A DNA stretch of 64,000 nucleotides from Cenarchaeum sp. (GTDB lineage: Archaea; Thermoproteota; Nitrososphaeria; Nitrososphaerales; Nitrosopumilaceae), in the NCBI GenBank assembly GCA_965212015.1, contig OZ243037.1, positions 640,001 through 704,000 on the forward strand, read 5' to 3'. Below the pieces are notes generated by a model. The model was not told the DNA's origin. It did no database searches and saw only the letters and a program-made list of their open reading frames with translations. The position numbers and the translations under genes are program-made. Each line of letters starts with the position of its first letter. The stretch's first letter is position 1. Below, piece by piece: positions 2,109 through 19,289 of the stretch.

Positions 2109-3845
2109 CTAAACTTTGTATGATTTTCTTAGGTGATGACTCCATTTTAGCATGTGTTCTTCTACCGTATCTTTAACGGATTGCATCCTAGTCAGATCAT
2201 CTAGATCATATTGTCCTTCAGCATATGCATAAAGAAGCCTGTCAATATCAGCCCTTAATGCCTTGCTTGCCTTTTGTAGATCTGATTTTTGCGGATCTAT
2301 AGCCATAGATTCAATTTCAGAGATTCGACGATTGATTTCTACAAAAAATGGGTGTTGCATGTTATAATGAATTACCTTCTTGCCTACATCATCAAGTACA
2401 TCGATAAATGTACCATCGGAACGTGCTTTGTAATCATGAATTATTTTATAGACTATGCTGGGATCCGTTACAGCCTTGACATAATCTGCCTGTTCATCTG
2501 GATTATCGGATATGTCTTTTGATCTATTTTCTATATTCTCTTTTATGTGGTCTTTGGTATCGGTCGATTGCATCGGTGCAGTTATTGGTGTCAATGTCTC
2601 TTCTACAGTTTTATGGCTGTTTATGGGGCCTTTATTTTCTTCATTTTCTTTTTGTTCCTCCGCATCTGCAGCTTCTTTTATTGTTTTCCTAAAATTATTA
2701 AGTATAGTTGGATTGAGTTTTTTTTCTAATATGTCCCTAAGATCTTTAAGCGGTCTAGCACCAACTTTAATATTTTTTACTGAAAACCAATAATCTAAAA
2801 CAGAATCAAAATCAATCTCACATCCCCAAAATCGATCTAGAGGTTTTGCTACAGGTGAGAATCTTGGTATTGGTCCATAATATACTTCGCGTCCATTTCT
2901 CAATATGGAAAATCCTTCGTTATATGGAATTCGTCTTTCTGCACTATGCTTGCTAGTTCCACCATATCCTGGTATGCCGGCATTATCTTTCTTTAACCTC
3001 CAAGATTCTGGCAGTATCGATGTTCTGATTATGATTTTACCTTTTCGCTCACCGCTATTGGGTCTGTCTACATCATGTACGTTATGCTCAAATGAATGTT
3101 CTGGTTGAAGTACTGCTCTTTCATCATCTGGAAATTTAGAGTTTTTTGTAACATATAGAGGATCATGAGAAGCAATTAATTCATTGTTGGAATTATCGGC
3201 CACAAATATTTTTCGTTGATTGTTATTTTTCTTGATCTTGCCGTTTTCTATAATTTCCTCACCTATGAATTTACGATAAATCCTACCAAGGTGATGTTTA
3301 ATCTCCTCAACTTTGAATTCTGAATCAATTCTGTCTATATTGGTCCAAATTACTAGTGTGCCATGATCTCCTACAAGATCTTTGTATTTTGCAGGTAAAT
3401 CTCTTTGTTCGATAGGGCTTAAAGAGGGCTCTACATCATTGTCAATTCCACTGATATCTAAAAGCGTATAATTCCAATTTCCTTGTTTTGCTCTAGAATA
3501 TACTTCAATTTTATTACATACATTGATTGCACCCATAGTCATTCCTACCCCAAATCGTCCTATACCTTTTCGATCATCATATCTGTTTGAATAACCAATG
3601 GCCAAACAGTGCTGAAGTGTCTTAGAGTCCATTCCATGACCATCATCACCAAATGCTATGGCAATTGGACGAGGCACACGTTGGCTCCCCAACGTGTCCA
3701 TTTCAAATTTAATCCTGATCTCTTTTGATTCTGCCTGAATGGAATTATCAACTACCTCATAGATTGCAGAATATGCATCAAAATCGTTGTTACGTAGTGA
3801 TTTTATAGCTGCGCCGACCCGTATAGGGGATATTTTTGTAGACAT
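2109..3845 (-). CDS. GHKL/MORC-like (HATPase_c_3) ATPase
   Basis: EVVDNSIQA, DDGHGM, GRFGVGM, HGTLV Bergerat-fold motifs; S5-like GFSILRNGR; abuts helicase. Confidence 0.88.
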   Translation of the reverse strand: MSTKISPIRVGAAIKSLRNNDFDAYSAIYEVVDNSIQAESKEIRIKFEMDTLGSQRVPRPIAIAFGDDGHGMDSKTLQHCLAIGYSNRYDDRKGIGRFGVGMTMGAINVCNKIEVYSRAKQGNWNYTLLDISGIDNDVEPSLSPIEQRDLPAKYKDLVGDHGTLVIWTNIDRIDSEFKVEEIKHHLGRIYRKFIGEEIIENGKIKKNNNQRKIFVADNSNNELIASHDPLYVTKNSKFPDDERAVLQPEHSFEHNVHDVDRPNSGERKGKIIIRTSILPESWRLKKDNAGIPGYGGTSKHSAERRIPYNEGFSILRNGREVYYGPIPRFSPVAKPLDRFWGCEIDFDSVLDYWFSVKNIKVGARPLKDLRDILEKKLNPTILNNFRKTIKEAADAEEQKENEENKGPINSHKTVEETLTPITAPMQSTDTKDHIKENIENRSKDISDNPDEQADYVKAVTDPSIVYKIIHDYKARSDGTFIDVLDDVGKKVIHYNMQHPFFVEINRRISEIESMAIDPQKSDLQKASKALRADIDRLLYAYAEGQYDLDDLTRMQSVKDTVEEHMLKWSHHLRKSYKV

Positions 3846-3936
3846 TTCTATACAGGGGTAATTATATGCTCTTTTTAATCTATTGGCATATCAGGGCTTG
3901 TATTCATGTACAGTCTTCTTGGGAATCTGAGATCTA

Positions 3937-4902
3937 TCAAGTTTTTCTAATTCTCTGGGATCTGGCGCCAGGCACATCTATCCTGTATCTGCCATTTCCC
4001 AGCTTTTCGAACCATTCCAGTAAAACCTGGACGTTTCCAGTCAGCTCCCTCCTACTCGGCACCGGCACGTCCGTACAGTTGTCCTGAATCCATTCCTTGA
4101 TTCTCCCAAAATATGCCTCTGGAGCGATAAACTCGTCAATCTTCCGGATAAATGAATGCTCGAAAAATTGTGTGGATAATTCCTGCAAAAACTCTTCTTT
4201 TGAAAGCCCGCTGCCAATGTCATAGTTTGCCAGATCATGAAATACACATGCTGCAATCTCGGGATCATCAGATGGTAACTGATCCGCAGCAATTCTTTGA
4301 TATCCGGTTACCAGATCATCCACGCTGCGAGTCATCGGCAGTGCAGATATCAGAAAATCATCCTTTTTTGGCGCTGATATGATGTCCTTTAGTTTGACCT
4401 GCTCTGGCAATTCAACCTTGTTGTTCTCGCTCCATTTTTTGAGCTCTTCATACATTGCATCATCGGCCAATCTTGCCTCACGCCGAATTTTTTCAAAGAA
4501 CAATCTGTCCTTGTTAGTCAGATTTTCAATCAGAGTTGCAGCCTCATAGTTGCCATCCGGTAGCAATCCCCTGTGCGAGATGTTTCCTGTGGCAAGAATT
4601 GCGCTGGAAAGATCAACAGAATACACCTTGAGATGCATGTTTTCGCTGATGTATAACGCAATGTTTCTTTCCTTGCAGAATGGATACAAGGATAATTCTG
4701 ATGATCTAAACTGGATATCTTTTGGCTCCCAGGTGGTGACAATCACCACTTTGTTTTCTATTCCATCCAAAAGCTGCATCAGCACCTTGGTCTTGACATA
4801 TGGAACAAAAAGAAATATCGTCTCATCTGGGTCACACTGTTTTAGATATTCCCTGATATGCTCATACAGTGGGCTGTGATAAAGATCGGTCAAATCATAC
4901 AC
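3937..4902 (-). CDS. Phospholipase D-family (HKD) nuclease domain protein
   Basis: FVPY and HLKVY...ATGNISHRGL...NYEA motif typical of PLD-like nucleases. Confidence 0.75.
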   Translation of the reverse strand: MYDLTDLYHSPLYEHIREYLKQCDPDETIFLFVPYVKTKVLMQLLDGIENKVVIVTTWEPKDIQFRSSELSLYPFCKERNIALYISENMHLKVYSVDLSSAILATGNISHRGLLPDGNYEAATLIENLTNKDRLFFEKIRREARLADDAMYEELKKWSENNKVELPEQVKLKDIISAPKKDDFLISALPMTRSVDDLVTGYQRIAADQLPSDDPEIAACVFHDLANYDIGSGLSKEEFLQELSTQFFEHSFIRKIDEFIAPEAYFGRIKEWIQDNCTDVPVPSRRELTGNVQVLLEWFEKLGNGRYRIDVPGARSQRIRKT

Positions 4903-4903
4903 C

Positions 4904-5677
4904 TCATTTGTAATCCGGAAATCGGTCTTTTATGTATCTGACTTGATCTTTCACGTCTAGCTTTTCCGCCCTTGGGGACGGGCCCCTCACAAAGAATGTC
5001 TTTTCTTTTCCGCAAAGCCATAGGGGACTATTTGCAGGCAATACCTGTATTATGCAGACGGTCTTGTTATCAATAACCCGAAATTTCATCTCTAGTCTGC
5101 TAGTGACAAACACGCGATCCTCCAGTAGATTTTCCAATCTGTCCCTCATGTGATTTGCAAATGAATCCTCATAGTCGGAAAACCCGCCGAATTTTTTATC
5201 CCTGTCCAGACCCACAACAGTACCATTTGACTTGATACCAAGATACACAAATCCTCCCTTTTTGTCGTTCCCAAAAGAGCATATCGCTGTGGCAAATCTC
5301 TCCTGTACGGATTTTTTTATGCCATCTATTGCTTGTTTGCTCTCTGGGGCCTGTTTTTCCAATAATTTCCCTATACTTTCATCATACTGGTAAAATTCCT
5401 TGAATTCATTTTGCTTGTCTTCAGTATCCGGTATCTCTATTTTGCCTAGATCGACAAATCTCGGAGCAGCCGTTGCTTTCTGTACCTTGATGTTTTTGAC
5501 ACGTCCCACCTGCCCGTCCTCCAGCCTGACCTTGATTCCGTGTGGGTGGGTCTCGCTGGAGGTCAGAATCTCGGCCACCACACCGTCAGTCAGTCTGCCC
5601 GTCCCTTGGTTCTCCTTGGTCTCAATCGAGACCACACATCCGCCTTTGATCTGGTTTCTGATCGGAGTCTCCGGCAT
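4904..5677 (-). CDS. YwbE (DUF2196) - Schlafen/AlbA_2 fusion protein
   Basis: N-term TGRLTDGVVAEILT...HPHGIKVRLEDGQVGRV (YwbE); C-term EDKQNEFKE...ICSFGN..GGFVYLGI (AlbA_2). Confidence 0.8.
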   Translation of the reverse strand: MPETPIRNQIKGGCVVSIETKENQGTGRLTDGVVAEILTSSETHPHGIKVRLEDGQVGRVKNIKVQKATAAPRFVDLGKIEIPDTEDKQNEFKEFYQYDESIGKLLEKQAPESKQAIDGIKKSVQERFATAICSFGNDKKGGFVYLGIKSNGTVVGLDRDKKFGGFSDYEDSFANHMRDRLENLLEDRVFVTSRLEMKFRVIDNKTVCIIQVLPANSPLWLCGKEKTFFVRGPSPRAEKLDVKDQVRYIKDRFPDYK

Positions 5678-6245: not shown

Positions 6246-6725
6246 GTGAAAATCTCCTTCAGGGTGTGCGGCAAGCCTCCGAAAAAATCAAGCGGGGGCT
6301 CGATTTGGACCGGCGAGTCAAGATCCGAACAGGTCCTAGATCTGCGCAGATCCGCGGCAGGTGAAAAAAAGAGGATAAACATGGAGTATCCTATGAGGGG
6401 CCCGCTAAGGATCAAACTGACAATACACTCCTCACAGGACATCACGAAAAAGGAGGATACCCACAATTACATCGGGGATCTGGACTCGCTTGTGGCCGGG
6501 GTGTGCGATGCCCTGAGGAAGGCAGATGAGAACGTCACGCCTCACGTGCGGTTCAACCAATACAAGGAAGTCGACCCGAAAAAACCCCTCATAATCGAGG
6601 ACGACTCGAACATAACTGCAATCGAGGCCAGCAAGATCAAGGACACCGAGGAATACTATACGGTGACAGTTGAGGAGATCCGGAATTCTAGCATGTGCGG
6701 ATTCCTGAAAAAAATCCGGGGCTGA
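6246..6725 (+). CDS. RusA-like Holliday junction resolvase/endonuclease
   Basis: G-x-P-x-x-K N-terminus, GDLDSLVAGVCDAL and IIEDDSNI acidic motifs characteristic of RusA. Confidence 0.65.
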   Translation: MKISFRVCGKPPKKSSGGSIWTGESRSEQVLDLRRSAAGEKKRINMEYPMRGPLRIKLTIHSSQDITKKEDTHNYIGDLDSLVAGVCDALRKADENVTPHVRFNQYKEVDPKKPLIIEDDSNITAIEASKIKDTEEYYTVTVEEIRNSSMCGFLKKIRG

Positions 6726-6825
6726 CTGGCAGATCATGGTTTCGCCCGATCGATTCATACCTGAACGGCACGCCGTGTGTGAAAACTCCATAACCCATAA
6801 TAATTCCTGAACCGGATGTAACATA

Positions 6826-7149
6826 TTGGTAAAATCCAAGGAATCGATCAAGGAACGATACCGAAAATACCAGAGGGAATATCATAGGAAATATTATCAA
6901 AAGCCGGAGACAAAGGAATGGGTTAGAGAATACAACCAGAGGCCGGAGGTAAAGGAAAGGCTCAGGAAATACAACCAAAGGCCGGAGGTAAAGGAAAAGC
7001 TCAGGAAATACAACCAGAGATCGGAGGTAAAGGAGCGGATCCGAAAATACCATCAGAGGCCGGAGGTAAAGGCGCGTAAAAGATATTTGGCAAAGATGAG
7101 GAGGATCCGTGGGAAATCCAAGACAAAGACCCGTAGAAAATCATACTGA
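6826..7149 (+). CDS. Highly basic repeat protein (YNQRPEVKERLRK 13-aa repeats)
   Basis: TTG start; tandem 39-bp coding repeats; paralogue immediately downstream. Confidence 0.65.
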   Translation: MVKSKESIKERYRKYQREYHRKYYQKPETKEWVREYNQRPEVKERLRKYNQRPEVKEKLRKYNQRSEVKERIRKYHQRPEVKARKRYLAKMRRIRGKSKTKTRRKSY

Positions 7150-7229
7150 CAGAGCAATATGATCAAATCAACGCCCACCTTTCCACGCTCAAAGAAACTC
7201 ATAATAATTCCCAAACAAGACATCACACA

Positions 7230-7763
7230 TTGGCAAAATCCAGGGAATCGGCCAAAAAAAGACTGGAAAGGCTAAGGCGCCAGAGGGAGTATGCCCAGAG
7301 GCCAGAAGTGAAGAAAAGGCTCAGGAAATACCGCCAGAGGCCGGAGGTAAAGAAGCGGATCCAGAAATACCAGAAGGAATACAGCCAGAGGCCGGATGCG
7401 AAAAAGCGGAATCGGGAACGACAGAAAAAATATAGCAAGAGGCCCGAGGTGAAAAAGCGACACGCTGAAAACAGCCTGAAATACAGTCGAAGGCCGGAGG
7501 TAAAGAAGCGGGTCAGGAAACGCAATCAGAGGCCGGAGGTAAAGAAGAGGGTCAGGAAATACCACCAGAGGCCGGAGATGAAGAAACGTAAGGGAGAATA
7601 CATGAAGAAATACAACCAGAGGCCGGAGGTGAGGAAACGCAAAAGGAGATACGCCCAGAGGCTGGAGGTGAAGGAACGTAAGAGAGAATACCAGAAAAAA
7701 TATTATCAAAGGCCGGAGGTAAAGGCGCGTAGAAGACACTCAGCAAAGACCCGTGGGAAATAA
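7230..7763 (+). CDS. Highly basic repeat protein (about 10 RPEVK-type repeats)
   Basis: Paralogue of 6826-7149 with similar start, end and upstream CATAATAATTCC motif. Confidence 0.65.
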   Translation: MAKSRESAKKRLERLRRQREYAQRPEVKKRLRKYRQRPEVKKRIQKYQKEYSQRPDAKKRNRERQKKYSKRPEVKKRHAENSLKYSRRPEVKKRVRKRNQRPEVKKRVRKYHQRPEMKKRKGEYMKKYNQRPEVRKRKRRYAQRLEVKERKREYQKKYYQRPEVKARRRHSAKTRGK

Positions 7764-7773
7764 CTAGTCCGAT

Positions 7774-7920
7774 GATGGTCCTTGGGTAGTCGGGCTGGCC
7801 TGCCAGCCCGACGGTGTGGTGGTACGGGGCTCCCGTCAGGGAGCCCGGGGAAAAGACGTTGATGGAGCCGAGTGAGAGTTCGTTGTCGGGGGATTGTGAG
7901 GTAACTGCGAGCTGAAAATC
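7774..7920. repeat. Conserved hairpin-rich element, copy 1 of 5
   Basis: GTCGGGCTGG-cctg-CCAGCCCGAC stem (7789-7812), GGGCTCCC-gtca-GGGAGCCC stem (7827-7846), TGTGAGGTAACTGCGAG at 7895. Confidence 0.9.
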
Positions 7921-7937
7921 TGTTCGGAGAGTTTGAA

Positions 7938-8122
7938 AAAGGTGCAAAAGGGGTCAGTTAGTGACGCAAAATAAGTCACCGGAAAAGGAGTCAAAGGTGC
8001 AAAAGGGGTCAGTTAGTGACGGAAAATAAGTCACCGGAAAAGAAGTCAAAGGCGCTTTAGGGGTCGGAGAATTAGGGGTCGAAAGCGCCTTAGGGGTCGA
8101 CGATAGGCGCTTTAGGGGTCGG
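7938..8122. repeat. Iteron-like array 1 (55-bp period x2, then TTAGGGGTCG x4)
   Basis: GGTGCAAAAGGGGTC at 7941 and 7996; GTC motif spacing 22/33 bp. Confidence 0.85.
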
Positions 8123-8283
8123 ACATCGGTGGGGCTTGAACAGTTTTGATTTTTGTAATTGGATATCGTGTTGGTGATATGGAAAACCCAAGTGAACCTG
8201 ACTCCGCCTGACACAGGACTGTGATTGCCAAAGTAATACAGGCCGTATGATTCGAGGTCGGTCCGAGCCTACCCATCCTGTCA

Positions 8284-8443
8284 GGCCGGGACTCTGATTT
8301 GGGCGGTCGGGCCGGCTCACGGCCCGACGGTGTGATGGTACAAGGCTCCCAACGGGAGCCTTGGGAGATGACCTTGAAGGCCAGGATGAGGTCGTCATTG
8401 GAGGGTTTGTGAGGTAATGCAAGTCGAAAATCCGCGCGCGGGG
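8284..8443. repeat. Conserved hairpin-rich element, copy 2 (most diverged)
   Basis: GTCGGGCCG-gctca-CGGCCCGAC, GGCTCCC-aac-GGGAGCC, TGTGAGGTAA at 8408. Confidence 0.85.
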
Positions 8444-8459
8444 CGGAATCCCACGATGA

Positions 8460-8621
8460 AAATACATGGTTTCCATGGTTTTTTTACATGGATTCCATGT
8501 TCTGGAAAACAGGCAAAACATGGTTTCCGTGGCTTTTTTACATGGATTCCATGTTCTGGAAAACCTGTAAAACATGGTTTCCATGTTTTAAAAAACAGGC
8601 AAAACATGGATTACATGGTTT
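8460..8621. repeat. Iteron-like array 2 (palindromic ACATGGWTTCCATG units)
   Basis: Units at 8465, 8487, 8519, 8541, 8573, 8605 (spacing 22,32,22,32,32). Confidence 0.9.
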
Positions 8622-8786
8622 GACGCGGGTCTGAATGATTCCGGCCTCTACATGAATGACAAAAGACGTTAGGAAACAAGCCTCTGCCACTCGTTTATCC
8701 TGACCGTTTCCTGAATAGCTAGATTACATCTGGGGGCTAGGATGATCCTGATACCGTTGGCCAGTGCCAGCCTTGGTGTGTGGTTT

Positions 8787-8975
8787 GGGCCGGGACTCCG
8801 GCCCGGGATGATACTGGGCAAGAGGGCCGGCTCTGCCGGCCCGACGGTGTGGTGGAACGGGGCCTCCCGTCAGGGAGCCCCGGGAAAAAGACATTGAGAT
8901 TACTGAATCGTGGTTCGTCGTTGGGGGGTTTGTGAGGTAACTGCGAGTTGGAAATCCGCGCACGAGGCTTGAAAA
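8787..8975. repeat. Conserved hairpin-rich element, copy 3
   Basis: GGGCCGG-gact-CCGGCCC, GGGCCGGC-tct-GCCGGCCC, CTCCC-gtca-GGGAG, TGTGAGGTAACTGCGAG at 8931. Confidence 0.9.
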
Positions 8976-8977
8976 AT

Positions 8978-9135
8978 GGCACTTTTGCAGTCAAAAAAAT
9001 GTAGGCAAAAGCATTTTTGCAGTCAATTTTTGGCACTTTTGCAGTCAGTAAAAAGATGCCAAAAGCATTTTTGCAGTCAAAAAAATGCAGTCAAAAGCAC
9101 TTTTGCGGTCGAAAAACGACCCTTTTGCGGTCGAA
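8978..9135. repeat. Iteron-like array 3 (TTTTGCRGTC units)
   Basis: GCRGTC at 8987, 9019, 9041, 9073, 9105, 9127 (32,22,32,32,22), plus one off-lattice copy at 9087. Confidence 0.9.
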
Positions 9136-9233
9136 ATGGATCCGGATGACAGGACGGCTCAAAAGCCAGAGCAGATAACAGAGTCGACCTGCCATCAAGA
9201 TTGAGAGACTCCCCTTGGTGATGTGGGACCTGC

Positions 9234-9551
9234 GGGCCTTGGTGACCTGTACGGGCCTTGGTGACCTGTACGAGTGTGTACGGGCCTTGGTGACCTGTAC
9301 GAGTGTGTACGGGCCTTGGTGACCTGTACGGGCCTTGGTGACCTGTACGAGTGTGTACGGGCCTTGGTGACCTGTACGAGTGTGTACGGGCCTTGGTGAC
9401 CTGTACGAGTGTGTACGGGCCTTGGTGACCTGTACGAGTGTGTACGGGCCTTGGTGACCTGTACGAGTGTGTACGGGCCTTGGTGACCTGTACGAGTGTG
9501 TACGGGCCTTGGTGACCTGTACGAGTGTGTACGGGCCTTGGTGACCTGTAC
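9234..9551. repeat. Perfect tandem repeat: 29-bp unit GGGCCTTGGTGACCTGTACGAGTGTGTAC x9 plus three 19-bp truncated units
   Basis: Counted directly; units identical, no unique spacers. Confidence 0.95.
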
Positions 9552-9565
9552 GGACTCGTATCCTG

Positions 9566-9751
9566 TCCGGGCCGGGACTCCGGCCCGGATGGTTCTGGGC
9601 AAGAGGGCCGGCTCTGCCGGCCCGATGGTGTGGAGATGGGGGCTCCCGCCAGGGAGCCCGAGGAAGAGACGTTGAGATTACTGAATGGTTCGTCGTTTGT
9701 GGGTTTGTGAGGTAACTGCGAGTTGGAAATCCGCGCGCGGGGCTTGAAAAA
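9566..9751. repeat. Conserved hairpin-rich element, copy 4
   Basis: TCCGGGCCGG-gact-CCGGCCCGGA, GGGCCGGC-tct-GCCGGCCC, GGGCTCCC-gcca-GGGAGCCC, TGTGAGGTAACTGCGAG at 9706. Confidence 0.9.
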
Positions 9752-9899
9752 CGACCTCTTTGCGGTCGGTTTTCGACCCTTTTGCGGTCGAAAAAAAGAG
9801 GTCGAAAGCACTTTTGCGGTCGAAAAACGACCCTTTTGCGGTCGAAAAAAAGAGGTCGAAAGCACTTTTGCGGTCGAAAAGCGACCCTTTTGCGGTCGA
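9752..9899. repeat. Iteron-like array 4 (TTTGCGGTCG units, 54-bp period)
   Basis: GCGGTC at 9762, 9784, 9816, 9838, 9870, 9892 (22,32,22,32,22). Confidence 0.9.
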
Positions 9900-10127
9900 T
9901 ATGGTAGGATGACAGAGCGGCTCAGGAGTCGTAGTAAGTAACACCGAGTCGGCTGGCCATCAAGATTGGAACAGACCCATTGGTCATGTGGCCTGTGGCC
10001 AGCCTTGGTGATCTGTGGGAGTCGTGACTTTTCCAGATGGTTTTGGGTAAGATGACCGGCTCTGGCCGGCTTGGTGTGTGGTCCGGCCCGGATGATTCTA
10101 GGTAAGAGGGCCAGACCTGCCGGCCCG

Positions 10128-10265
10128 AGATGGTCCTTGGCTAGTCGGGCTGGCCTACAGCCCGACGGGATTTGGTATGAGGCTCCCGCCAGGGAGCCTT
10201 GGGGAAAAGACGTTGAGATTACTGAATCGTGGTTCGTCGTTTGTGGGTTTGTGAGGTAACTGCGA
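10128..10265. repeat. Conserved hairpin-rich element, copy 5 (degenerate partial modules upstream at ~10036-10128)
   Basis: GTCGGGCTG-gccta-CAGCCCGAC, GGCTCCC-gcca-GGGAGCC, TGTGAGGTAACTGCGA at 10250. Confidence 0.9.
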
Positions 10266-10309
10266 ACCTGCTGCTACAAACACGCGCGTGCGGGGGATAT
10301 TAGGCATAT

Positions 10310-10836
10310 TTTTGCGTACACTCAGTGTACCGTCACGTAGCACCCAGTGTACGCAAAAAGGGTACACTTGGTACACTTGGTGTACCCATACGTAGCACTT
10401 GGTGTACCCAGTGTACGCAAAAAGGGTACACTTGGTACACTTGGTGTACCCATACGTAGCACTTGGTGTACCCAGTGTACGCAAAAAGGGTACACTTGGT
10501 ACACTTGGTGTACCCATACGTAGCACTTGGTGTACCCAGTGTACGCAAAAAAATGCATTTAATGCATTCAAAAAATGCATTTAATGCACTCAGTGTACGC
10601 AAAAAAATGCATTTAATGCATTCAAAAAATGCATTTAATGCACTCAGTGTACGCAAAAAAATGCATTTAATGCATTCAAAAAATGCATTTAATGCACTCA
10701 GTGTACGCAAAAAAATGCATTTAATGCATTCAAAAAATGCACTTAATGCACTTTGTGCTACCTCACGTGGCTCTTTGTGCTACCCCCGCATAGCTCTTTG
10801 TGCTCTTTGTGCTACCCCACGTAGCTCTTTGTGTCC
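10310..10836. repeat. Composite iteron-like array 5: 64-bp x3 (10345-10536), 54-bp x4 (10537-10752), CTTTGTGCTAC units (10751-10836)
   Basis: CAGTGTACGC at 10345, 10409, 10473, 10537, 10591, 10645, 10699; ATGCATTTAATGCA at 22/32 spacing; CTTTGTG at 10751, 10773, 10805, 10827. Confidence 0.92.
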
Positions 10837-11056
10837 TTTTTACCCCAAGTTGATCTGTGGCAACAGATACAGAAATTAAAGATAAATTAAATCCCGTGCG
10901 GTCACACCAACATCTGTTTTCCCGCGCCCCAAAACCAATAATGATTTCCAAACAGGACTGGCAGAATCCAAGACATCAATCAAGTAAAGGCTCAGACGCC
11001 AGAGGCATGGCGTAAGAGTCATGCTCCTGTAACTTGTGCTCGTTGTACCGCCGACA

Positions 11057-12589
11057 CTAGGATTCCCGCGCGGTTGCCCGGCGCACAAGGAACCTGCCGT
11101 CGGAGAGCTCCGTGTCCACCTCCCACCCCTGGGCAGAATGCTCCAGCAGGCTCTGTTCATCCTCGATAATTCGGCTTTCATATGGGGCATCCGCCTTGGC
11201 AGGTCTTGCCGGTATTTCCTTGGGGACCGTGACAGAATCGTTTCGGATCAGGGAAGTCGGATCCATCCCGTACATCTTGGCCTGCTGCCGCCACAGGTTG
11301 AGTAGCATGTCCTTTTTGTTAGCGCCGTCGGCCTTGAGGTCCGTAGCCAGAAACGTCTGACTCTGCGCGTACGCGCGCCTCATGTCCTCCGTCATCTGCT
11401 CTGTGAGCCTGCCCTTGTTGGTGGTGTATCGAGCCTCCATGTCGCCCTTGTGTCCCATAAAGAATTGTCTGTATGCGTGCGTCATGCACCCGTGGCTTTC
11501 GGCCATGAGCATCTGCGTGTCAAAGTATGCCCTCAGGGCGTACGGGCGGATCTTCATCACGCCCCAGATCGTCCTCCGTATGCTCTCCGATATGGCCGGC
11601 GTGGTCAGAAATAATGTGTCCGATTTCTTACGCTGCCCCCTTTCCTGGTATCCATTGTTGAACGTAATGAGCGGCGAGTCCGGTTCCAGTATATCGCCGT
11701 GCGCGATACGCTGCCGCAGATATCCCAAAAGATACTCACATCCCTGCTTTGTCAGGAACGTAAAGTACTTGTTTTTGGTCTTGCTAAGCTGGGCGCGGAC
11801 GACAATCATTGCCGGCATCTTTTCAAACGACACCCTGTCGCCGTCGATGCGCAGTTCCGGCAGATCCGAGAGTTTCAGCCCGTCACCCTTGTCAGACGTG
11901 CCCATCACCTGGGGGCGGATGCCGGAGAATGCCATCATGCCTACGATGAGCTTTGTGCGCGGGGATCCTGCGCCTAGAATCTGATCAAGTTGCTCCTGCG
12001 TGGGGACCTGCTCGTCCTCTATGCTTACCGCAATGCTGGCGTTTCTCACCTTTATTTTGCGCCTTATCTCGATGTGGTTGTATTCAAGCCACGACTTTAT
12101 CGCCTTTATCATCCCCTCTGTGTAGCCCGGCGCGTAATTCTGTTTTTCCATCCACGAGACGTGATCAAGCAGAATGTTCTCCATGTCCATTGGATTGTCG
12201 CGTCCTATGGTAACCAAGTTTGTAGGAGTCTTGTCAACCCTGTGGCAGAACAGATTGAGTCTGCGCAGCCTTACCTTTGAGTTGAGTATGCTAGAGCGCG
12301 CACAGTTTTCATACCAGCGTCTAACGTCATCATCCTTCAATAGTATAACTGGAGCTTGTGTCGTCACCTGATTCCACCGGATGTTATCAAAACGCGTTCC
12401 CCTATTTTTCCTTTTTGTTGTACGATTTTTTTCGTTAGGAATTATATTAGAGGAGTTTTCATGTTGTGTAATAACCGCGCGCTTTTTTTCCGGTTCCCTG
12501 TCAGGGCGCCGTGAGTTTGCACTCTTTATTTGTAGGCGAGGCTTGCAGTCGGCTTTTGAATTTACAGATTTTGTTTTCTGTTTTTTCAT
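11057..12589 (-). CDS. Tyrosine recombinase / site-specific integrase (start uncertain)
   Basis: SGIRP (catalytic R), RPYALRAYF, FMGH, ARYT (catalytic Y). Confidence 0.88.
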   Translation of the reverse strand: MKKQKTKSVNSKADCKPRLQIKSANSRRPDREPEKKRAVITQHENSSNIIPNEKNRTTKRKNRGTRFDNIRWNQVTTQAPVILLKDDDVRRWYENCARSSILNSKVRLRRLNLFCHRVDKTPTNLVTIGRDNPMDMENILLDHVSWMEKQNYAPGYTEGMIKAIKSWLEYNHIEIRRKIKVRNASIAVSIEDEQVPTQEQLDQILGAGSPRTKLIVGMMAFSGIRPQVMGTSDKGDGLKLSDLPELRIDGDRVSFEKMPAMIVVRAQLSKTKNKYFTFLTKQGCEYLLGYLRQRIAHGDILEPDSPLITFNNGYQERGQRKKSDTLFLTTPAISESIRRTIWGVMKIRPYALRAYFDTQMLMAESHGCMTHAYRQFFMGHKGDMEARYTTNKGRLTEQMTEDMRRAYAQSQTFLATDLKADGANKKDMLLNLWRQQAKMYGMDPTSLIRNDSVTVPKEIPARPAKADAPYESRIIEDEQSLLEHSAQGWEVDTELSDGRFLVRRATARES

Positions 12590-12703
12590 ATTGAAAGCGC
12601 CACTAGACCCGCTTCCACTGTGGGTTCGGGTCTTTCCCTGGCAAAATGCCCACAAACCGGTATCCGCGGGTGATTAACGCCCCCGCTTTTGCTGTATCGG
12701 CAA

Positions 12704-13966
12704 CTATTCTGTTTGGCCCGTCTTGGCGCTCATCAGCACCTCTAGTACCCGGTCAAGCTGTTCTGGCGTTGCCTTTTCCATGACGTTCTGTATGTGGTGT
12801 CTCTGCTCCAGTGTGGGGTCTATCTTGCTCTGATCCAGATACTCCTCGGATCGCATGAATCCCTCGCGCATCTCGGCTGTCAGGACCTCTGGCAGTATGC
12901 TCTTGTTTGTCGTGTACCTTGACTCCATGCTGCCCTTGTGTCCCATGAAAAAGACCCTAAAGTCGTGGGCTATCTTTCCCTTGGACTCTGCAATTAGCAG
13001 CTGCGTGTCAAAGTACGCCCTTAGAACGTATGGCCTCCATGTGAATCTGGGCCTGAACGTCCTTCTTACCAGATCACTTATTTGCTGCGTGGGCAGAAAC
13101 GCCTTTCTTGTATTGACGCCCCTGTGCGTCTTGTAGATATAGTCGGGCGCTACAATTGGCGCATTATCGTGCAGTGATTCCCCGTGAACCAGCCTGTCGT
13201 TCAGGTATGCCACGATGTGGCTCGTTGCGGACTGTGTCGAGAATGTAAAGTACTGGTGGCGTGCCTTTGAGAGCTCGCGCCGTACTATGATTCTGTTTGG
13301 AATTCTAACGCACTTTGCCTTTCCCTGATGGATTACCAGATCCGGCAGATCCTTCATTTGCAGTCCGTCCGTTCCGTTATGGTTTCCAATGACCTGTGGT
13401 CTGAGGCCCGACTTTGCCATCAGCGATATTATCACCGACTCGCGCAGGCCGGCCCTGCTGTATATCTCGGTCATCTCTTGCCCCTCCGGGACGCGTTCGT
13501 TTTGAAGCGTAGGGGTATAGTTTGTGGACGTCACCTTGATCTTTCTTCGTATCTCCACATCAAAGTGTCTCAGCCACGACTTTACCGTCTTGATCTGCTC
13601 CTCAATGTATCCCGGGGAATAATTCTTGGACTCCATCATGGTGATGTGATCCTCAAGCAAGTCCGTTGCAGTTCTCAGATCCCTAGTTGCCAGATCCGCC
13701 AGCTGTATCGGTGTCATCTGGTGAATCTCGCAGAACCGTCCCAGTCTCCTGAGACGCCCATCTGCTGTGATGGGGCTTCCGCGCGCCAGATTATCATGCC
13801 ATCTTTTGATGTCCGTGTTGGCCAACAGCCTTGATTTTTTTGTCTGTTTGGCAGTATCTTTTGCGTATGGTTTTGTTTTTTCCATATCTGTCAGCCTCTC
13901 GGTTACATTCTCGGTATGGTATGGTTTTGCTATTTGACTTTTGAGCGCGTTTTCCATTGTTATCAT
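12704..13966 (-). CDS. Tyrosine recombinase / site-specific integrase, paralogue of 11057-12589
   Basis: SGLRP, RPYVLRAYF, FMGH, SRYT motifs. Confidence 0.9.
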   Translation of the reverse strand: MITMENALKSQIAKPYHTENVTERLTDMEKTKPYAKDTAKQTKKSRLLANTDIKRWHDNLARGSPITADGRLRRLGRFCEIHQMTPIQLADLATRDLRTATDLLEDHITMMESKNYSPGYIEEQIKTVKSWLRHFDVEIRRKIKVTSTNYTPTLQNERVPEGQEMTEIYSRAGLRESVIISLMAKSGLRPQVIGNHNGTDGLQMKDLPDLVIHQGKAKCVRIPNRIIVRRELSKARHQYFTFSTQSATSHIVAYLNDRLVHGESLHDNAPIVAPDYIYKTHRGVNTRKAFLPTQQISDLVRRTFRPRFTWRPYVLRAYFDTQLLIAESKGKIAHDFRVFFMGHKGSMESRYTTNKSILPEVLTAEMREGFMRSEEYLDQSKIDPTLEQRHHIQNVMEKATPEQLDRVLEVLMSAKTGQTE

Positions 13967-14334: not shown

Positions 14335-14496
14335 TTATGACTCGTTGCCGGCCTTGAGGTAGAGCCTGTCTCCTTCCCTCTCAAAGACGATCACATCACC
14401 CTTTTCGAACCTGCAGCTGTTTCGGACCCGTTTCGGGATGGTAATCTGGTACTTGTATGATACCACGGTTGTGCCTAGGATTTCCTTGTTATTCAT
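14335..14496 (-). CDS. AbrB/MazE/SpoVT-family DNA-binding protein (53 aa, not in ORF track)
   Basis: MNNKEILGTTVVSYKYQITIPKRVRNSCRFEKGDVIVFEREGDRLYLKAGNES; QITIPKxVR...GD motif. Confidence 0.88.
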   Translation of the reverse strand: MNNKEILGTTVVSYKYQITIPKRVRNSCRFEKGDVIVFEREGDRLYLKAGNES

Positions 14497-14557: not shown

Positions 14558-16474
14558 TTGAAAAGTAAGGCAAAAAAGGCATCTCAGATGGCCAAATGTA
14601 CTACAATGCTAAAGTGGTATTTTCCACCAACAGGTGGTGGAGTAACTCAGGGATTTAATGATGGTTCACAAGAATTCTTCCGATCTAATGCATGGGAGCA
14701 GACCATAAGAGAGATAATTCAGAATTCACTTGATGCTGTAGATGATCGAAGAGACGGGCCAGTAAAAATAAACATCTCTGAAATAACGATACCTGCATCA
14801 GAGATAGGAGCCACTGATCTTGCTGGCCACATAAGCAAGGCTTTGGAACGCACTAGAAAACAAGAATCCACCACAGGGAGTAAATTTTACGAAAATGCAT
14901 TGAAGGTTTTAAATCAAAATGAGATCAAAATGCTTGCAATAACTGATACTAACACTACAGGTTTAGTGGATGAAAAATGGGATGCGCTGATATATGATGA
15001 AGGTACATCAAGTAAAGGTGGTATAAATGCAGCAGGAGGAAGTTTTGGCATTGGAAAAAATGCACCATATGTGGTTTCAGATTTAAAAACTGTATGTTAT
15101 TCCACACGATATCTAGGCAAGGGAAGAATTGAAAAGTTTATTGCTCGATGCAAGATTTCTGCACATGAGAATCCCGATGAATCTTCTAAAGAAATGCTAC
15201 AACACATAGGATTTGGAACTAAAACAAAATTAGCAAAAAATATTCGTCCTTTACCAACAGAAGGAAGTGACATTCATCAACTATTTCGTCTTGATGAATA
15301 TGGAAGTGGAATATTTATTATGGGATTTAATCCACAACTAAAAAATTGGATCAAAGTGGCCAAAAAATCTATAGCACATAATTTTTTTGTTGCAATACAT
15401 GAAAAGAAATTAGAAATTTATATAAATTCTGATCCGATAAACTATGAAACATTAGATGGTATATTTGAGGATGATCGTAAAAAAGAACCTACTCGTCACT
15501 ATTATCATATCATCCGTGATGATATTAAGAAAGAAATTGTAGAAGGAGATCTGGGAAAATTTACAGTACAAATAAATATTGATGATGAAGATGCACCAAA
15601 CCAAATTGCATATATAAACCGAAGAGGAATGATGGTAACTGACAAGCGTATTTTCGATGAAAATCCATTTTATACGGCAGTTGGAAAAGGTTGGGCCAAA
15701 TATGCAGTAGTAATTATGTCACATGATGATGCAACAGATATGAAAATACGTATGATGGAGCCGCCTAACCATCAATCAATCGAATACAAGCGCATCAATG
15801 ATCATAAAAAACGAGATTCTATGGAACGACAACTTCGTGTCATAAAAAATAAAATTACTGATATTATTAACAACGCAATTTCCGACAGTAATCATGAACA
15901 TGACATAAATCTATCAGAACTTGCAGACATATTGCCTTTTCCTGATGATTCAGGAAAAGAAGGTATTGAACAAAGTGAAAAAGATCAGTCTCTAGATCAT
16001 CATACTATAGAGTCTGGCACATCATCTCATATCGTAGATGATGATGGATTAGATTCAGGTAAAAAGTTAGGTGGGACCTCAGATACACATGGAAAGAATC
16101 ATAAATCTATTTCTGGTCGCAAAATAAGCAGTAAAGGAACACCAATTTTGCATCGTCAGCGAATTGTGCGCAGCAAGGATATACTCCGTGTTGCATTTAC
16201 ATCACGTCAAAATAATGGAAAACCAGTGTGCTTTGGCATCAAACCTGTAGGTGAAGAAAGAAAAAATGAAATCATGATTCCAATAACTTCGGCCCGTGTG
16301 GAAACACCATCGAATTTTACCATTAAAATGAATAACAATCGTATAACCATGACTCCAAAATATGATGAACGGGTTGTAATGGATCTAAAAATACCTCAAA
16401 CCAAGTCATATACAGGATATGAGATCATTGAAATAGTACAAAACAAAAAACCCTCAAAAGGTAATAAAAAATGA
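14558..16474 (+). CDS. GHKL-like ATPase domain protein
   Basis: REIIQNSLDA, ITDTNTTGL, GGSFGIGK motifs; first gene of an overlapping operon. Confidence 0.75.
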   Translation: MKSKAKKASQMAKCTTMLKWYFPPTGGGVTQGFNDGSQEFFRSNAWEQTIREIIQNSLDAVDDRRDGPVKINISEITIPASEIGATDLAGHISKALERTRKQESTTGSKFYENALKVLNQNEIKMLAITDTNTTGLVDEKWDALIYDEGTSSKGGINAAGGSFGIGKNAPYVVSDLKTVCYSTRYLGKGRIEKFIARCKISAHENPDESSKEMLQHIGFGTKTKLAKNIRPLPTEGSDIHQLFRLDEYGSGIFIMGFNPQLKNWIKVAKKSIAHNFFVAIHEKKLEIYINSDPINYETLDGIFEDDRKKEPTRHYYHIIRDDIKKEIVEGDLGKFTVQINIDDEDAPNQIAYINRRGMMVTDKRIFDENPFYTAVGKGWAKYAVVIMSHDDATDMKIRMMEPPNHQSIEYKRINDHKKRDSMERQLRVIKNKITDIINNAISDSNHEHDINLSELADILPFPDDSGKEGIEQSEKDQSLDHHTIESGTSSHIVDDDGLDSGKKLGGTSDTHGKNHKSISGRKISSKGTPILHRQRIVRSKDILRVAFTSRQNNGKPVCFGIKPVGEERKNEIMIPITSARVETPSNFTIKMNNNRITMTPKYDERVVMDLKIPQTKSYTGYEIIEIVQNKKPSKGNKK

Positions 16475-17307
16475 GTCATACGAACTTCTTGCTACCACAT
16501 CCAATAATTAAACCTGGAGGATTTGACTACAATGAAAATTGTCACTTTGACATAGAGATAAAACAGGCCACGACACTTGATGGAAATATCCACATTGAGA
16601 TATCATGTGATCTGTCCAGTTTTACTATAAATGATCTCATAAAGAAAGAAAAAGCAAAATTTTTTATTACTTTAAAATGTGTTAAAACCCATCAAAGAAT
16701 CACACATAGCTTTACAGAAACTTCCATGGTTTGGGATATTCCGATGTCTAACTGTGTCGATAAAATAAACATAACGCCATATGTGGCAACAACTGAGGAA
16801 ATACCAGCATTTTACTCCAAAGAACATGATGATGAAATTCAACAAATGATTCCTGATGGCGTAGATCTTCCGACAGGTGCCATTTTGGCAGTAGGAAAAT
16901 CACACGAAATCACGATTGATGCGATAGAAAAGATCCAAGCTGCCATCAAGATAATCCAAAATAAGGAATTGGAAGTAGGAACTTACGCCATAGACACCAG
17001 TGGCGATTATCTAGACATTCAAATGCATCCTAAAACACAAAACAGCATACGTAATATACACAACCAATCAGTAGAACTTTTGTATCCATCAATTTACCTG
17101 ACTGCCATCGAACAAGCCATACGTGATATGGAAAATTATAAAGATCGCAAATGGGCACAAGCTTTGCACAAAACTCTAGAAAAACACAATATTGAGATTG
17201 ATTATGATAAATTAAAGGAAGAAGCAAATAAGCATGCCCAGACAATACTGAACAAACCATTGGATCGCATCATACAATGGCACAATCGAGAGAATGAATA
17301 TGATTGA
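16471..17307 (+). CDS. Hypothetical protein
   Basis: 278 aa; stop/start overlaps with both neighbours as given in the ORF track. Confidence 0.8.
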   Translation: MSHTNFLLPHPIIKPGGFDYNENCHFDIEIKQATTLDGNIHIEISCDLSSFTINDLIKKEKAKFFITLKCVKTHQRITHSFTETSMVWDIPMSNCVDKINITPYVATTEEIPAFYSKEHDDEIQQMIPDGVDLPTGAILAVGKSHEITIDAIEKIQAAIKIIQNKELEVGTYAIDTSGDYLDIQMHPKTQNSIRNIHNQSVELLYPSIYLTAIEQAIRDMENYKDRKWAQALHKTLEKHNIEIDYDKLKEEANKHAQTILNKPLDRIIQWHNRENEYD

Positions 17308-19241: not shown

Positions 19242-19289
19242 GTATGATCATGCCATTTGAATATCTTTTACTTTCCATGGAGATATGTC

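What the first reader, a model, noticed from the sequence alone, without database searches (positions are those of the whole stretch)
7938..10836. Sequence-unrelated repeat blocks share one helical geometry (22/32-33 bp spacing, 54-55 bp period)
Seen: motif spacings are 22,33,22,33,33,22 (GTC, block 1); 22,32,22,32,32 (CATGG, block 2); 32,22,32,32,22 (GCRGTC, block 3); 22,32,22,32,22 (GCGGTC, block 4); 22+42=64, then 22/32, then 22,32,22 (block 5). In cassettes 1-4 the first motif is 56-58 bp from the anchor. Units are often palindromic (ACATGGA-T-TCCATGT, TGCATT-T-AATGCA, GGTACAC-TTG-GTGTACC) and separated by A/T tracts. Established: about 2, 3 and 5 helical turns puts sites on one DNA face, as in plasmid iterons and centromere-like arrays. 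Inference: spacing is under selection while specificity diversifies.
Basis: partly seen in the sequence, partly recalled or inferred. Interest (0 to 1): 0.85.

Follow-up and report, generated by a model that had tools for sequence, protein, structure and literature searches.

The report
Phased binding arrays of archaeal plasmids
Five gene-less DNA cassettes, each a conserved hairpin "anchor" followed by its own array of short sites spaced two and three helical turns apart, look like the docking sites that a family of integrated plasmid-like elements of ammonia-oxidising archaea uses for its own small DNA-binding proteins.

Summary
All stated spacings (22/32-33, period 54-55; 22/42 = 64 in part of block 5) were reproduced, and the geometry recurs in seven further arrays of this genome, 10 loci of five other Nitrosopumilaceae genomes and one further genus.

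Each block follows a conserved anchor: two covarying GC hairpins plus the motif GTGAGGTAAnTGCGA. Complete copies (324 kb, 756 kb; 10 foreign loci) continue into a promoter-like box and an AbrB/SpoVT-fold gene with an invariant C-terminal tail. That gene converges on a TraG-like ATPase, with a ParM-like actin alongside, inside tRNA-integrated plasmid-like elements.

The window's five cassettes carry no gene. They lie between KR-repeat protein genes and two putative recombinase genes.

"Sequence-unrelated" is only partly right, because blocks 1, 3 and 4 share a GTC core. Selection on spacing is supported: between loci the 9-nt spacers are randomised (34% identity) while sites (79%) and the 22-bp spacing persist, and the anchors tolerate indels.

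Best reading: phased platforms for element-specific AbrB-fold adaptors in a maintenance module. A centromere/operator role leads; origin iterons and TraG loading sites are rivals. No binding was tested. I rate it a new variant of a known kind.

The parts
6826..7149 (+). Gene for a KR-rich protein built of 13-aa repeats (RPEVKxR.RKY.Q), 107 aa
   Evidence: ORF. No Pfam, NCBIfam or PHROG family. Paralogs lie next to anchors at 325 kb and 1162 kb.
7230..7763 (+). Second KR-repeat protein gene, 177 aa; it ends 7 bp before cassette 1
   Evidence: The protein atlas gave nothing named.
7790..7917 (+). Anchor 1: hairpin 1, hairpin 2 (GGGGCTCCC-GTCA-GGGAGCCC), GTTCGT box and GTGAGGTAACTGCGA
   Evidence: Covariance model R1, 117 bits; alignments A1 and A4; hairpin covariation.
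7938..8130 (+). Array 1: 55-bp unit x2.1, then GGGGTCG variants; GTC at 22/33 with extra half-sites at +15
8307..8429 (+). Anchor 2
   Evidence: R1, 86.6 bits.
8461..8621 (+). Array 2: ACATGGWTTCCATGK palindromes at 22,32,22,32,32
8823..8953 (+). Anchor 3
   Evidence: R1, 109 bits.
8977..9139 (+). Array 3: TTTTGCAGTCA sites at 32,22,32,32,22; the last unit is of the block-4 type
9140..9232 (+). Conserved tail after GTC-type arrays, ending in CCTTGGTGA
   Evidence: 78% identical to 9943-9991 (family D17). Also present at 1162-1163 kb and 947 kb.
9233..9552 (+). Perfect 29-bp tandem repeat (GGCCTTGGTGACCTGTAC core)
   Evidence: 7.9 copies, 100%. 19-bp versions x13-16 precede the anchors at 756 kb and 324 kb.
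9604..9728 (+). Anchor 4
   Evidence: R1, 105 bits.
9750..9899 (+). Array 4: CGACC-N7-GGTCG palindromes and GGTCG direct repeats; 54 bp x2.3 at 98%; 22,32,22,32,22
10000..10140 (+). Extra partial hairpin modules (hairpin followed by TTGGTGTGTGG)
   Evidence: families D6 and D15.
10145..10272 (+). Anchor 5
   Evidence: R1, 106 bits.
10307..10836 (+). Composite array 5: 64 bp x3.3 (GGTACAC/GTGTACC, 22/42), 54 bp x4 (TGCA-N5-TGCA, 22/32), then CTCTTTGTGCTACC units (22/32); it abuts the 3' end of the next gene
   Evidence: Homologous composite arrays at 1164 kb and 1134 kb. An analogous one lies next to the homologous gene in G438.
11057..12655 (-). Putative divergent tyrosine recombinase, 532 aa
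   Evidence: A 64%-identical paralog at 1165-1166 kb lies next to tRNA-Lys, with a 20-bp direct repeat 21 kb away. R, K, R, H and Y are invariant with canonical spacing in 18 sequences. No Pfam, PDB or profile support.
12704..13966 (-). Second paralog of the same family, 420 aa
   Evidence: 41% identity, E 6e-94.

Best explanation
The five blocks are orphan, gene-less copies of the cis-acting module of a family of plasmid-like elements that integrate into the chromosomes of Nitrosopumilaceae-type archaea.

A full module reads, 5' to 3':
1. sometimes a perfect 19-bp tandem repeat;
2. two GC hairpins;
3. GTTCGT...GTGAGGTAAnTGCGA;
4. a lead of about 40 bp;
5. an array of 13-17-bp dyad or 9-bp-repeat sites spaced 22 and 32-33 bp (2 and 3 helical turns);
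6. a promoter-like GCCTTTTATGCA box;
7. the gene of an AbrB/SpoVT-fold protein.

Inferred mechanism. Dimers or tetramers of that protein bind the sites cooperatively on one DNA face. This builds a nucleoprotein platform that represses the protein's own promoter. Through the invariant C-terminal tail (SR[LM]EKLRM[KR]) the platform hands the element's DNA to a motor. The ParM-like actin, giving partition, is my leading candidate (about 0.35). The convergent TraG-like ATPase is the alternative.

Specificity diversifies by turnover of repeat units, while whole-turn spacing is kept.

The window's cassettes have no adaptor gene. Block 4 (CGAC-N9-GTCG) and block 5b (TGCA-N5-TGCA) share half-sites and spacing with the arrays of the two complete elements at 324 kb and 756 kb. 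They could therefore be served in trans, or they may be relics of tandem integration.

Shown: anatomy, conservation, covariation, gene linkage. Inferred: every binding step and the function.
For: Anatomy and recurrence
- 14 anchor hits in this genome, 11 of them full length and followed by arrays.
- Lags of 54/22/32 recur in arrays at 324, 756, 1162, 1163-1164 and 1134 kb.

Complete modules
- At 756 kb and 324 kb the array is followed by a promoter-like box and an AbrB-like gene. That gene converges on a 1038-aa ATPase, with an actin-like gene and a Pfam-positive integrase next to tRNA-Asp.

AbrB fold
- 19 of 20 family members hit PF04014 (best E 2.3e-6).
- The predicted secondary structure is beta-beta-alpha-beta-beta, in a low-confidence model.
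- Three homologues are named AbrB/MazE/SpoVT by NCBI.

Array type follows protein type
- All 11 loci with a 756-type protein carry TGCAnnnnnTGCA sites.
- All 5 loci with a second AbrB class carry 33-bp arrays of 9-bp sub-repeats.
- The 324-type protein goes with CGAC-N9-GTCG.
- The G438 cassette goes with CCTTTGGCRCC at 22/33.

Other points
- Spacing is constrained while spacers are randomised.
- Hairpin 2 has 8 pairs, 5 with compensatory double changes and none broken except at loop closure.
- The C-terminal tail is conserved in 20 of 20 sequences across a variable linker.
- Actin-like gene: phrog_691 'partition protein', E 1.2e-18. Homologues are named ParM/StbA. It shares at least 10 contig lengths with the AbrB family.
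- Distant thaumarchaeal ParM loci show parM, then a small gene, then 30-31-bp arrays.
- Array motifs are private to the arrays.
- Precedent: in pT26-2 a SpoVT/AbrB gene lies beside a repeat-rich putative origin, with a TraG-like gene nearby (PMC2926602, passages).
Against: - No binding of any kind was tested.
- The window's cassettes have no adaptor gene and no detectable remnant of one (best tblastn E 0.28). Only two adaptor genes of this family exist in the genome, against at least seven array types.
- The ParM-like gene is not next to the adaptor gene. A 3.1-kb ATPase gene separates them and they lie on opposite strands.
- In more distant relatives that keep the AbrB-like/ATPase pair (G032, G171), no actin-like gene was found within 1.5 kb. 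The conserved pair is therefore adaptor plus TraG-like ATPase.
- The first family member scores below Pfam's cut-off for PF04014 (21.9 against 24.7 bits).
- The 22/32 alternation is not universal: some arrays are pure 32 or 33, and one is 64.
- Some cassettes are clearly decaying, with 2 sites at 1163.6 kb and 1 at 947 kb.
- The hairpins and the conserved motif have no assigned role in this model.
Confidence: 0.45

Rival explanations
1. The arrays are replication-origin iterons. They are bound by an initiator or copy-number regulator (the AbrB-fold protein or a host factor). The hairpins and the conserved motif form the rest of the origin.
For: - 22-bp phasing is the classical iteron spacing (recalled from the iteron-plasmid literature; not checked in a paper here).
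- The perfect 19-bp tandem repeats x13-16 upstream of complete modules look like iterons too.
- No replication protein is recognisable in the 8-9-kb elements, so an unconventional initiator is needed.
- In pT26-2 a SpoVT/AbrB gene sits next to a repeat-rich putative origin (PMC2926602, passages).
Against: - No Rep, primase or helicase gene lies next to any array.
- Five to eight origins in a row within one 3-kb stretch is hard to rationalise.
- The sites are dyads or 9-bp repeats, not single direct iterons.
- Motifs are not shared with the host Orc1/Cdc6 region.
Confidence: 0.2
2. The cassettes are transfer or loading sites (oriT- or clt-like). The adaptor bound to the array recruits the convergent TraG-like DNA translocase, and the hairpins plus GGTAAnTGCGA are the processing site. 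The gene-less cassettes would let a non-autonomous element be moved by several helpers.
For: - The adaptor gene and the ATPase gene converge and overlap at their 3' ends in this genome, in 5 of 10 foreign loci (with remnants in 3 more), and in G032 and G171.
- Residues 349-1031 of the ATPase match TraG-like proteins of Sulfolobus conjugative plasmids at E 3e-50. Pfam TrwB_AAD_bind scores 23.7 bits, above its cut-off, and TraG-D_C has E 0.0011.
- pARN4 has the same layout of a convergent small ORF plus hairpins.
- The motif resembles the MOBQ nick region. This is recalled from memory and untested.
Against: - No relaxase and no VirB4-type ATPase is present in this genome (best 16 bits).
- The hairpins lie 60-68 bp from the motif, further than in bacterial oriTs.
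- The mechanism of archaeal conjugation is unknown.
Confidence: 0.15
3. The arrays are only transcriptional operators. They would be autoregulatory sites for the AbrB-fold repressor, with no role in DNA maintenance. The gene-less cassettes would be dead remnants left by tandem integrations and deletions.
For: - The arrays lie 50-200 bp upstream of the promoter-like box of the adaptor gene.
- AbrB, MazE and MraZ proteins are transcription regulators (family knowledge).
- Tandem modules with ATPase gene remnants between them exist in other genomes.
- Some cassettes are decaying.
- Metagenome contigs join anchors to one another. This could reflect variable cassette number or paralogous loci.
Against: - Four to more than 13 phased sites are more than an operator needs.
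- The invariant C-terminal tail suggests a partner.
- Repeat units in the orphan arrays are 96-100% identical.
- Cassette order is kept between the window and the 1162-kb locus at 69-80% identity. Plain relics would not be expected to stay this regular.
Confidence: 0.12
4. The geometry is inherited, not selected. All arrays would descend from one 54-bp unit, and concerted evolution would homogenise each array.
For: - All arrays follow homologous anchors in the same register.
- Blocks 1, 3 and 4 and several paralogs are alignable variants of one unit.
- Within-array identity of 88-100% shows ongoing homogenisation.
Against: - Both sites of a unit change together between arrays.
- Spacers are randomised while their length is fixed.
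- Anchors of the same age carry indels.
- Whole-turn periods of 32, 33, 55 and 64 recur with unrelated motifs in other genera.
Confidence: 0.08

Closest known systems
Iterons of bacterial theta plasmids (R6K, pPS10, RK2, F, P1; recalled)
   Same: Repeated protein-binding sites about 22 bp centre to centre, on one helical face. They are element-specific and a source of incompatibility.
   Different: Here the spacing alternates 22/32-33, and the sites are dyads or 9-bp sub-repeats. No Rep gene lies next to them; the neighbour is an AbrB-fold gene. The host is an archaeon.
Type II partition loci (parC-ParR-ParM of R1, pSK41; PMC2241845 seen as abstract only)
   Same: Arrays of repeats at the promoter of a small DNA-binding adaptor gene, an actin-like ATPase in the same element, and an adaptor with a conserved C-terminal tail.
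   Different: The adaptor has an AbrB fold rather than a ribbon-helix-helix fold. The genes are not adjacent, and a TraG-like ATPase lies between them. The period is 54 bp rather than 11 or 20. Several arrays occur in a row.
pT26-2 family of Thermococcales plasmids (PMC2926602, passages read)
   Same: A SpoVT/AbrB-family gene lies immediately beside a repeat-rich intergenic region taken as the origin. A TraG-like gene is nearby, and integrated copies exist.
   Different: No sequence relationship was tested here. No phased 22/32 geometry or anchor is described in the passages I read.
TraM-sbm sites-TraD of F-like plasmids, and TraB-clt of Streptomyces plasmids (both recalled)
   Same: A small oligomeric DNA-binding protein, or the translocase itself, binds several repeats beside its gene and couples the DNA to a TraG/FtsK-type ATPase.
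   Different: No relaxase or mating-pore genes were found here. The protein fold differs.
Integron cassette arrays
   Same: A recombinase gene lies next to a row of cassettes that share a structured conserved element.
   Different: The cassettes carry no genes. The hairpins are perfect GC stems, not attC-type bulged stems. The recombinase is not of the IntI type.

Membership tests
Iteron-type plasmid replication origin | Direct repeats of 17-22 bp phased at about 22 bp | tested here: met
   A 22-bp spacing is present in every block, but it alternates with 32-33 and the sites are mostly dyads.
Iteron-type plasmid replication origin | An adjacent gene for the initiator (Rep) that binds the repeats | tested here: not met
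   No Rep, primase or helicase family was found among the neighbours in the window or in the complete elements.
Iteron-type plasmid replication origin | Supports autonomous replication | not testable with these tools
   Needs an experiment.
Type II (ParMRC) partition locus | An actin-like ParM ATPase encoded in the element | tested here: met
   Met in the complete elements at 324 kb and 756 kb: MreB_Mbl E 2.5e-14, ALP_N E 1.3e-6 and phrog_691 'partition protein' E 1.2e-18. Not met in the window itself.
Type II (ParMRC) partition locus | A ParR-type adaptor gene adjacent to parM, with a centromere of repeats at its promoter | tested here: inconclusive
   The repeats do lie at the promoter of a small DNA-binding gene. 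But its fold is AbrB rather than RHH, and the gene lies 3.1 kb from the parM-like gene on the other strand.
Type II (ParMRC) partition locus | The adaptor binds both the centromere and the motor | not testable with these tools
AbrB/MazE/SpoVT DNA-binding proteins (the adaptor) | Swapped-hairpin domain recognised by PF04014 | tested here: met
   19 of 20 members hit at E <= 0.01 (best 2.3e-6). The window genome's 756-kb member scores 21.9 bits, below the 24.7 cut-off. The predicted order is beta-beta-alpha-beta-beta at mean pLDDT 58.
Integron | IntI-type integrase and attC-bounded gene cassettes | tested here: not met
   No integron-integrase model hits the two recombinase-like genes. The cassettes contain no ORF related to known genes.
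Structured RNA family (Rfam) | A match at the gathering score | tested here: not met
   All 11 matches between 5500 and 14500 are far below their gathering scores and hit palindromic repeats. They are miRNA families and are taken as chance.
Tyrosine recombinase (genes at 11057-13966) | Catalytic R-K-(H)xxR-H-Y with sequence or profile similarity to the family | tested here: inconclusive
   R189, K234, R316, H343 and Y351 are invariant with canonical spacing in 18 sequences. There is a weak XerA N-terminal hit, E 5e-5. But there is no Pfam hit, no PDB hit, and hhalign against three Pfam-positive integrases gives probability 0.1%.

The most novel reading that the evidence does not exclude
The gene-less cassette row is a working battery of 'handles'. 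Each array would be cognate to the adaptor of a different co-resident or incoming plasmid-like element.

This could serve either of two purposes. The small integrated element (KR gene, cassettes, recombinase gene) could hitch-hike on several helpers' partition or transfer machines. Alternatively the arrays could titrate those adaptors and so exclude rival elements. That would be an incompatibility-based decoy sitting inside a defence island.

What fits this reading:
- Blocks 4 and 5b share half-sites and spacing with the arrays of the two complete elements of the same genome.
- The orphan arrays stay perfectly regular.
- Their order is conserved in a paralogous locus.
- Defence-type genes flank the locus.
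Probability: 0.15. Interest if true: 0.85.

Novelty: new variant of a known kind. Interest (0 to 1): 0.62.

Why it matters
Maintenance functions of archaeal mobile elements are almost unknown. Most integrated elements of ammonia-oxidising archaea are classed as 'cryptic', with no recognised replication or partition module (PMC6563490; passages read; 0 occurrences of 'actin', 'AbrB', 'MreB' or 'SpoVT').

This locus offers a concrete, testable cis/trans pair. The cis part is a set of phased arrays. The trans part is an AbrB-fold adaptor with a conserved tail, linked to ParM-like and TraG-like ATPases.

Many natural specificity variants are built on one geometry. That makes the question of how spacing and specificity evolve separately directly testable by binding assays. 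It also gives sequence signatures, the anchor motif and covarying hairpins, for finding such elements in metagenomes.

Tried and rejected
- **RNA evidence.** No RNA holder was listed for 6800-13000.
- **Read laying.** It used short metagenome contigs only. Joints between anchors (8403>9701, 9588>10131, 9232>10001, 7764>9255 in X3/X4) may be cassette-number variants or paralogous loci. I give them no weight.
- **Rfam.** Only sub-threshold miRNA-type chance hits on palindromes.
- **tRNAs.** None in the window.
- **Anchor by BLAST.** Found in 0 of 60 relatives.
- **Strict anchor pattern.** Among 300 family genomes it hit only this genome plus one chance hit inside a coding gene of G005.
- **Same pattern in viral contigs.** 112 stretches matched. 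None of the 80 loci fetched has an array downstream, so these are chance hits.
- **Covariance model R1.** 14 hits in this genome, 1 in G438 and 0 in the 149 other family genomes.
- **324-type AbrB protein.** No match in the 400 other genomes of the order that were searched.
- **Plasmid database.** No DNA match to 7700-10900.
- **Complex prediction** (actin-like with the adaptor tail). Nothing was folded.
- **TraG-like ATPase.** No PDB sequence match. For the N-terminal 400 aa the atlas gives only DUF8128 at 0.91.
- **KR-repeat protein.** No named relative.
- **Remnants of abrB or ATPase genes in the window cassettes.** None.
- **att repeats.** None clear for the 756-kb and 324-kb elements.
- **Host.** My early guess of a methanogen was wrong. 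Names on homologues point to Nitrosopumilaceae.
- **Literature searches for a prior description**. None was found in the library held. Subscription journals and supplements were not seen.

Full report
**1. Observation**

Region 7770-10836 holds five cassettes. Each starts with a conserved anchor of about 130-170 bp and continues into its own repeat array.

- Every spacing series in the finding was reproduced.
- Tandem Repeats Finder gives periods of 55, 54, 54, 54, 64 and 54 at 88-100% matches.
- 4-mer autocorrelation puts lags 54/55, 22 and 32 on top in most blocks.
- One refinement: in blocks 1, 3 and 4 the 32-33 bp interval holds a further GTC half-site, splitting it into 14-15 + 18.
- The array motifs occur nowhere else in the 1.76-Mb genome except in paralogous arrays.
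- By my arithmetic 22, 32 and 54 bp are 2.04, 2.96 and 5.00 turns at 10.8 bp/turn. At 10.5 bp/turn there is a drift of about 51 degrees per unit.

**2. What the anchor is**

The anchor has 16-17 BLAST copies and 14 covariance-model hits in the genome. They cluster in the window, at 1162.7-1164.0 kb, and singly at 756, 324, 1134 and 947 kb, with weak hits at 1108 and 1144 kb.

It consists of:
- GC hairpin 1;
- GC hairpin 2;
- a variable spacer of 60-68 bp;
- GTTCGT..GTGAGGTAAnTGCGA, found 10 times genome-wide and always just upstream of an array.

Hairpin 2 covaries across genomes: CTCCC/GGGAG, CCGCC/GGCGG and ACTCT/AGAGT. It has 8 pairs, 5 of them with double compensatory changes. The two G-U cells lie on the + strand. 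Whether the structure forms in RNA or in DNA is open. No Rfam family fits.

**3. Complete modules**

At 756 kb and 324 kb the array runs into GGCCTTTTATG(C/T)A. About 20 nt further on starts the gene of a 108-125-aa protein.

*The protein.*
- 19 of 20 family members hit PF04014 (AbrB/MazE/SpoVT).
- The fold prediction gives beta-beta-alpha-beta-beta at low confidence.
- A variable acidic linker ends in an invariant SR[LM]EKLRM[KR] tail.

*The neighbours.*
- The gene converges on, and overlaps the 3' end of, a 1038-aa ATPase. Residues 349-1031 of that ATPase match TraG-like proteins of Sulfolobus conjugative plasmids (E 3e-50; Pfam).
- Upstream of the ATPase lies an actin-like gene (MreB/ALP_N; phrog 'partition protein'; homologues named ParM/StbA).
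- Next come a Topo-mini-A-like gene and Pfam-positive integrases.
- tRNA-Asp abuts the integrase of the 756-kb element.

These are small integrated plasmid-like elements. Names on homologues point to Nitrosopumilaceae.

**4. Other genomes**

- *The 756-type family.* Ten loci in five other Nitrosopumilaceae genomes encode 52-69%-identical adaptors. All ten have the hairpins, the motif, an array of TGCA-N5-TGCA sites and the promoter-like box.
- *Spacings.* Over the 11 loci the adjacent spacings are 22 (21 times), 32 (10), 31 (2), 44 (2), 54-55 (3) and 74 (1).
- *Sites against spacers.* Between loci the sites are 79% identical, the 9-nt spacers 34% and the 19-nt spacers 59%.
- *Second adaptor class.* Five of these loci carry a second, 30-35%-identical AbrB gene in tandem. 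It has its own anchor variant and 33-bp arrays made of 9-bp sub-repeats. Remnants of the ATPase gene lie between the two modules.
- *Another genus (G438).* One cassette has a 55-bp array (CCTTTGGCRCC at 0 and 22) before an AbrB-like gene. A second has composite 32/32/33-bp arrays abutting a homologue of the window's 532-aa gene.
- *More distant relatives.* G171 has a 32-bp array before a tandem-AbrB gene. G032 has less regular repeats.
- *Distant ParM loci.* In metagenomes these show parM, then a 93-97-aa gene, then 30-31-bp arrays.

Whole-turn phasing with changing motifs is therefore general in this group of elements. The exact 22/32 alternation belongs to some classes only.

**5. The window's cassettes**

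- They contain no gene and no remnant of abrB or of the ATPase gene.
- They lie between two KR-repeat protein genes and two paralogous genes (532 and 420 aa) that I read as divergent tyrosine recombinases. The basis is invariant R, K, R, H and Y with canonical spacing plus context. No Pfam, PDB or profile support exists.
- Region 8787-12345 is collinear, at 69-80% identity, with 1162.7-1166.2 kb. There the homologous gene abuts tRNA-Lys, and a 20-bp direct repeat lies 21 kb away.
- The family occurs in 81 of 301 genomes of the family, or 76 of 296 without five unpublished genomes.
- Blocks 1, 3 and 4 are variants of one GTC-type unit, which also occurs at 324, 1162, 1163 and 947 kb.
- Block 4 (CGAC-N9-GTCG) resembles the array of the 324-kb element. 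Block 5b (TGCA-N5-TGCA) has the half-sites and spacing of the 756-type arrays but a different centre.

**6. Interpretation**

Four observations point to protein-binding platforms that are specific for AbrB-fold adaptors and sit in a cis-acting maintenance module:
- array type follows adaptor type;
- spacing is fixed over randomised spacers;
- the sites are dyads or 9-bp repeats;
- the arrays sit at the adaptor gene's promoter.

Which machine the platform serves is not settled.
- *For partition:* the ParM-like gene, the adaptor-like tail, and the parMRC-like layout in distant relatives.
- *Against partition:* the actin gene is absent next to the adaptor/ATPase pair in G032 and G171.
- *For a loading site of the TraG-like ATPase:* the conserved convergent pair, and the pARN4 layout.
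- *Against a loading site:* no relaxase or VirB4 is present.
- *For an origin:* the 22-bp phasing, the 19-bp perfect repeats and the pT26-2 precedent (PMC2926602, passages).
- *Against an origin:* there is no Rep gene.

The complex prediction that could have tested tail-motor binding was unavailable.

**7. Novelty**

The survey of integrated elements in Thaumarchaeota does not mention actin, AbrB, MreB or SpoVT (PMC6563490, term searches and passages). Four literature searches found no description of such cassettes. Subscription journals and supplements were not seen.

I rate this a new variant of a known kind. The arrays are iteron- or centromere-like. They sit in an unusual modular form (conserved hairpin anchor, diversifying arrays, gene-less tandem copies), with an AbrB-fold adaptor, in archaeal elements.

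Noticed in passing
window 6826-7149 and 7230-7763 (+); paralogs at genome 325.0-326.4, 881.2-881.8, 1145.9-1147.3 and 1161.9-1162.5 kb: A family of very basic proteins built of 13- or 17-aa repeats (RPEVKKR.RKY.Q), up to 441 aa. It has no Pfam, NCBIfam, PHROG or atlas name. Three copies lie directly upstream of anchors, so it could be a DNA-binding partner of the cassettes.
   Followed up: partly
window 11057-12655 and 12704-13966 (-): A recombinase-like family with invariant R, K, R, H and Y but no detectable sequence or profile similarity to known tyrosine recombinases. It is present in 81 of 301 family genomes (76 of 296 without unpublished ones).
   Followed up: partly
window 483-5677 and 14558-22037: Low-GC (0.35-0.40) stretches with defence-type genes flank the cassette locus. 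They include a ResIII/DEAD helicase, HATPase_c_3, a PLD-like gene, DUF2196+Schlafen AlbA_2, DUF6339+PAPS reductase, a DndB-like gene and an HNH nuclease.
   Followed up: no
window 14335-14496 (-): A stand-alone 53-aa AbrB/MazE-type gene (30 bits, above the cut-off) lies just beyond the second recombinase-like gene. No array lies upstream of it.
   Followed up: partly
window 6246-6725 (+): An ORF with a weak RusA-like Holliday-junction resolvase hit (phrog_140, E 5.7e-6).
   Followed up: no
window 9233-9552; L018 2166-2507; L019 10641-11058: Perfect tandem repeats of 29 bp (window) or 19 bp (x13-16) with the core GGCCTTGGTGACCTGTAC lie just upstream of anchors. The same CCTTGGTGA motif ends the cassette tails and marks one contig joint (9232>10001). 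It may be a recombination core.
   Followed up: partly
L074-L083, the 32-bp intervals of the arrays: The long spacer of the 756-type arrays holds a conserved CCGAAAACCCYGAAAG-like element (59% identity between loci, against 34% for the short spacer). This may be a second binding site or a bend.
   Followed up: no
L088, L092, L104, L110 (metagenome contigs): Distant ParM-like genes are followed by a 93-97-aa gene (..LRYRIKKKLKK.., ending in ENW) and three CTCCTTAAGCC sites at 30-31-bp spacing. This is a classical parMRC-like layout in thaumarchaeal contigs.
   Followed up: partly
L314 (Sulfolobus islandicus plasmid pARN4) 2167-7465: The TraG-like gene has a convergent, overlapping 153-aa ORF. 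Beyond it lies a long gene-poor stretch with two AAGGGGC...GCCCCTT hairpins and purine-rich repeats. This is the same layout as in the elements studied here.
   Followed up: partly
window 23996-24778: Short stretches here are 78-88% identical to sequences beside the att-like repeat at 1145.5 kb and beside tRNA-Val at 947.3 kb. They may mark the right end of the island that holds the cassettes.
   Followed up: no
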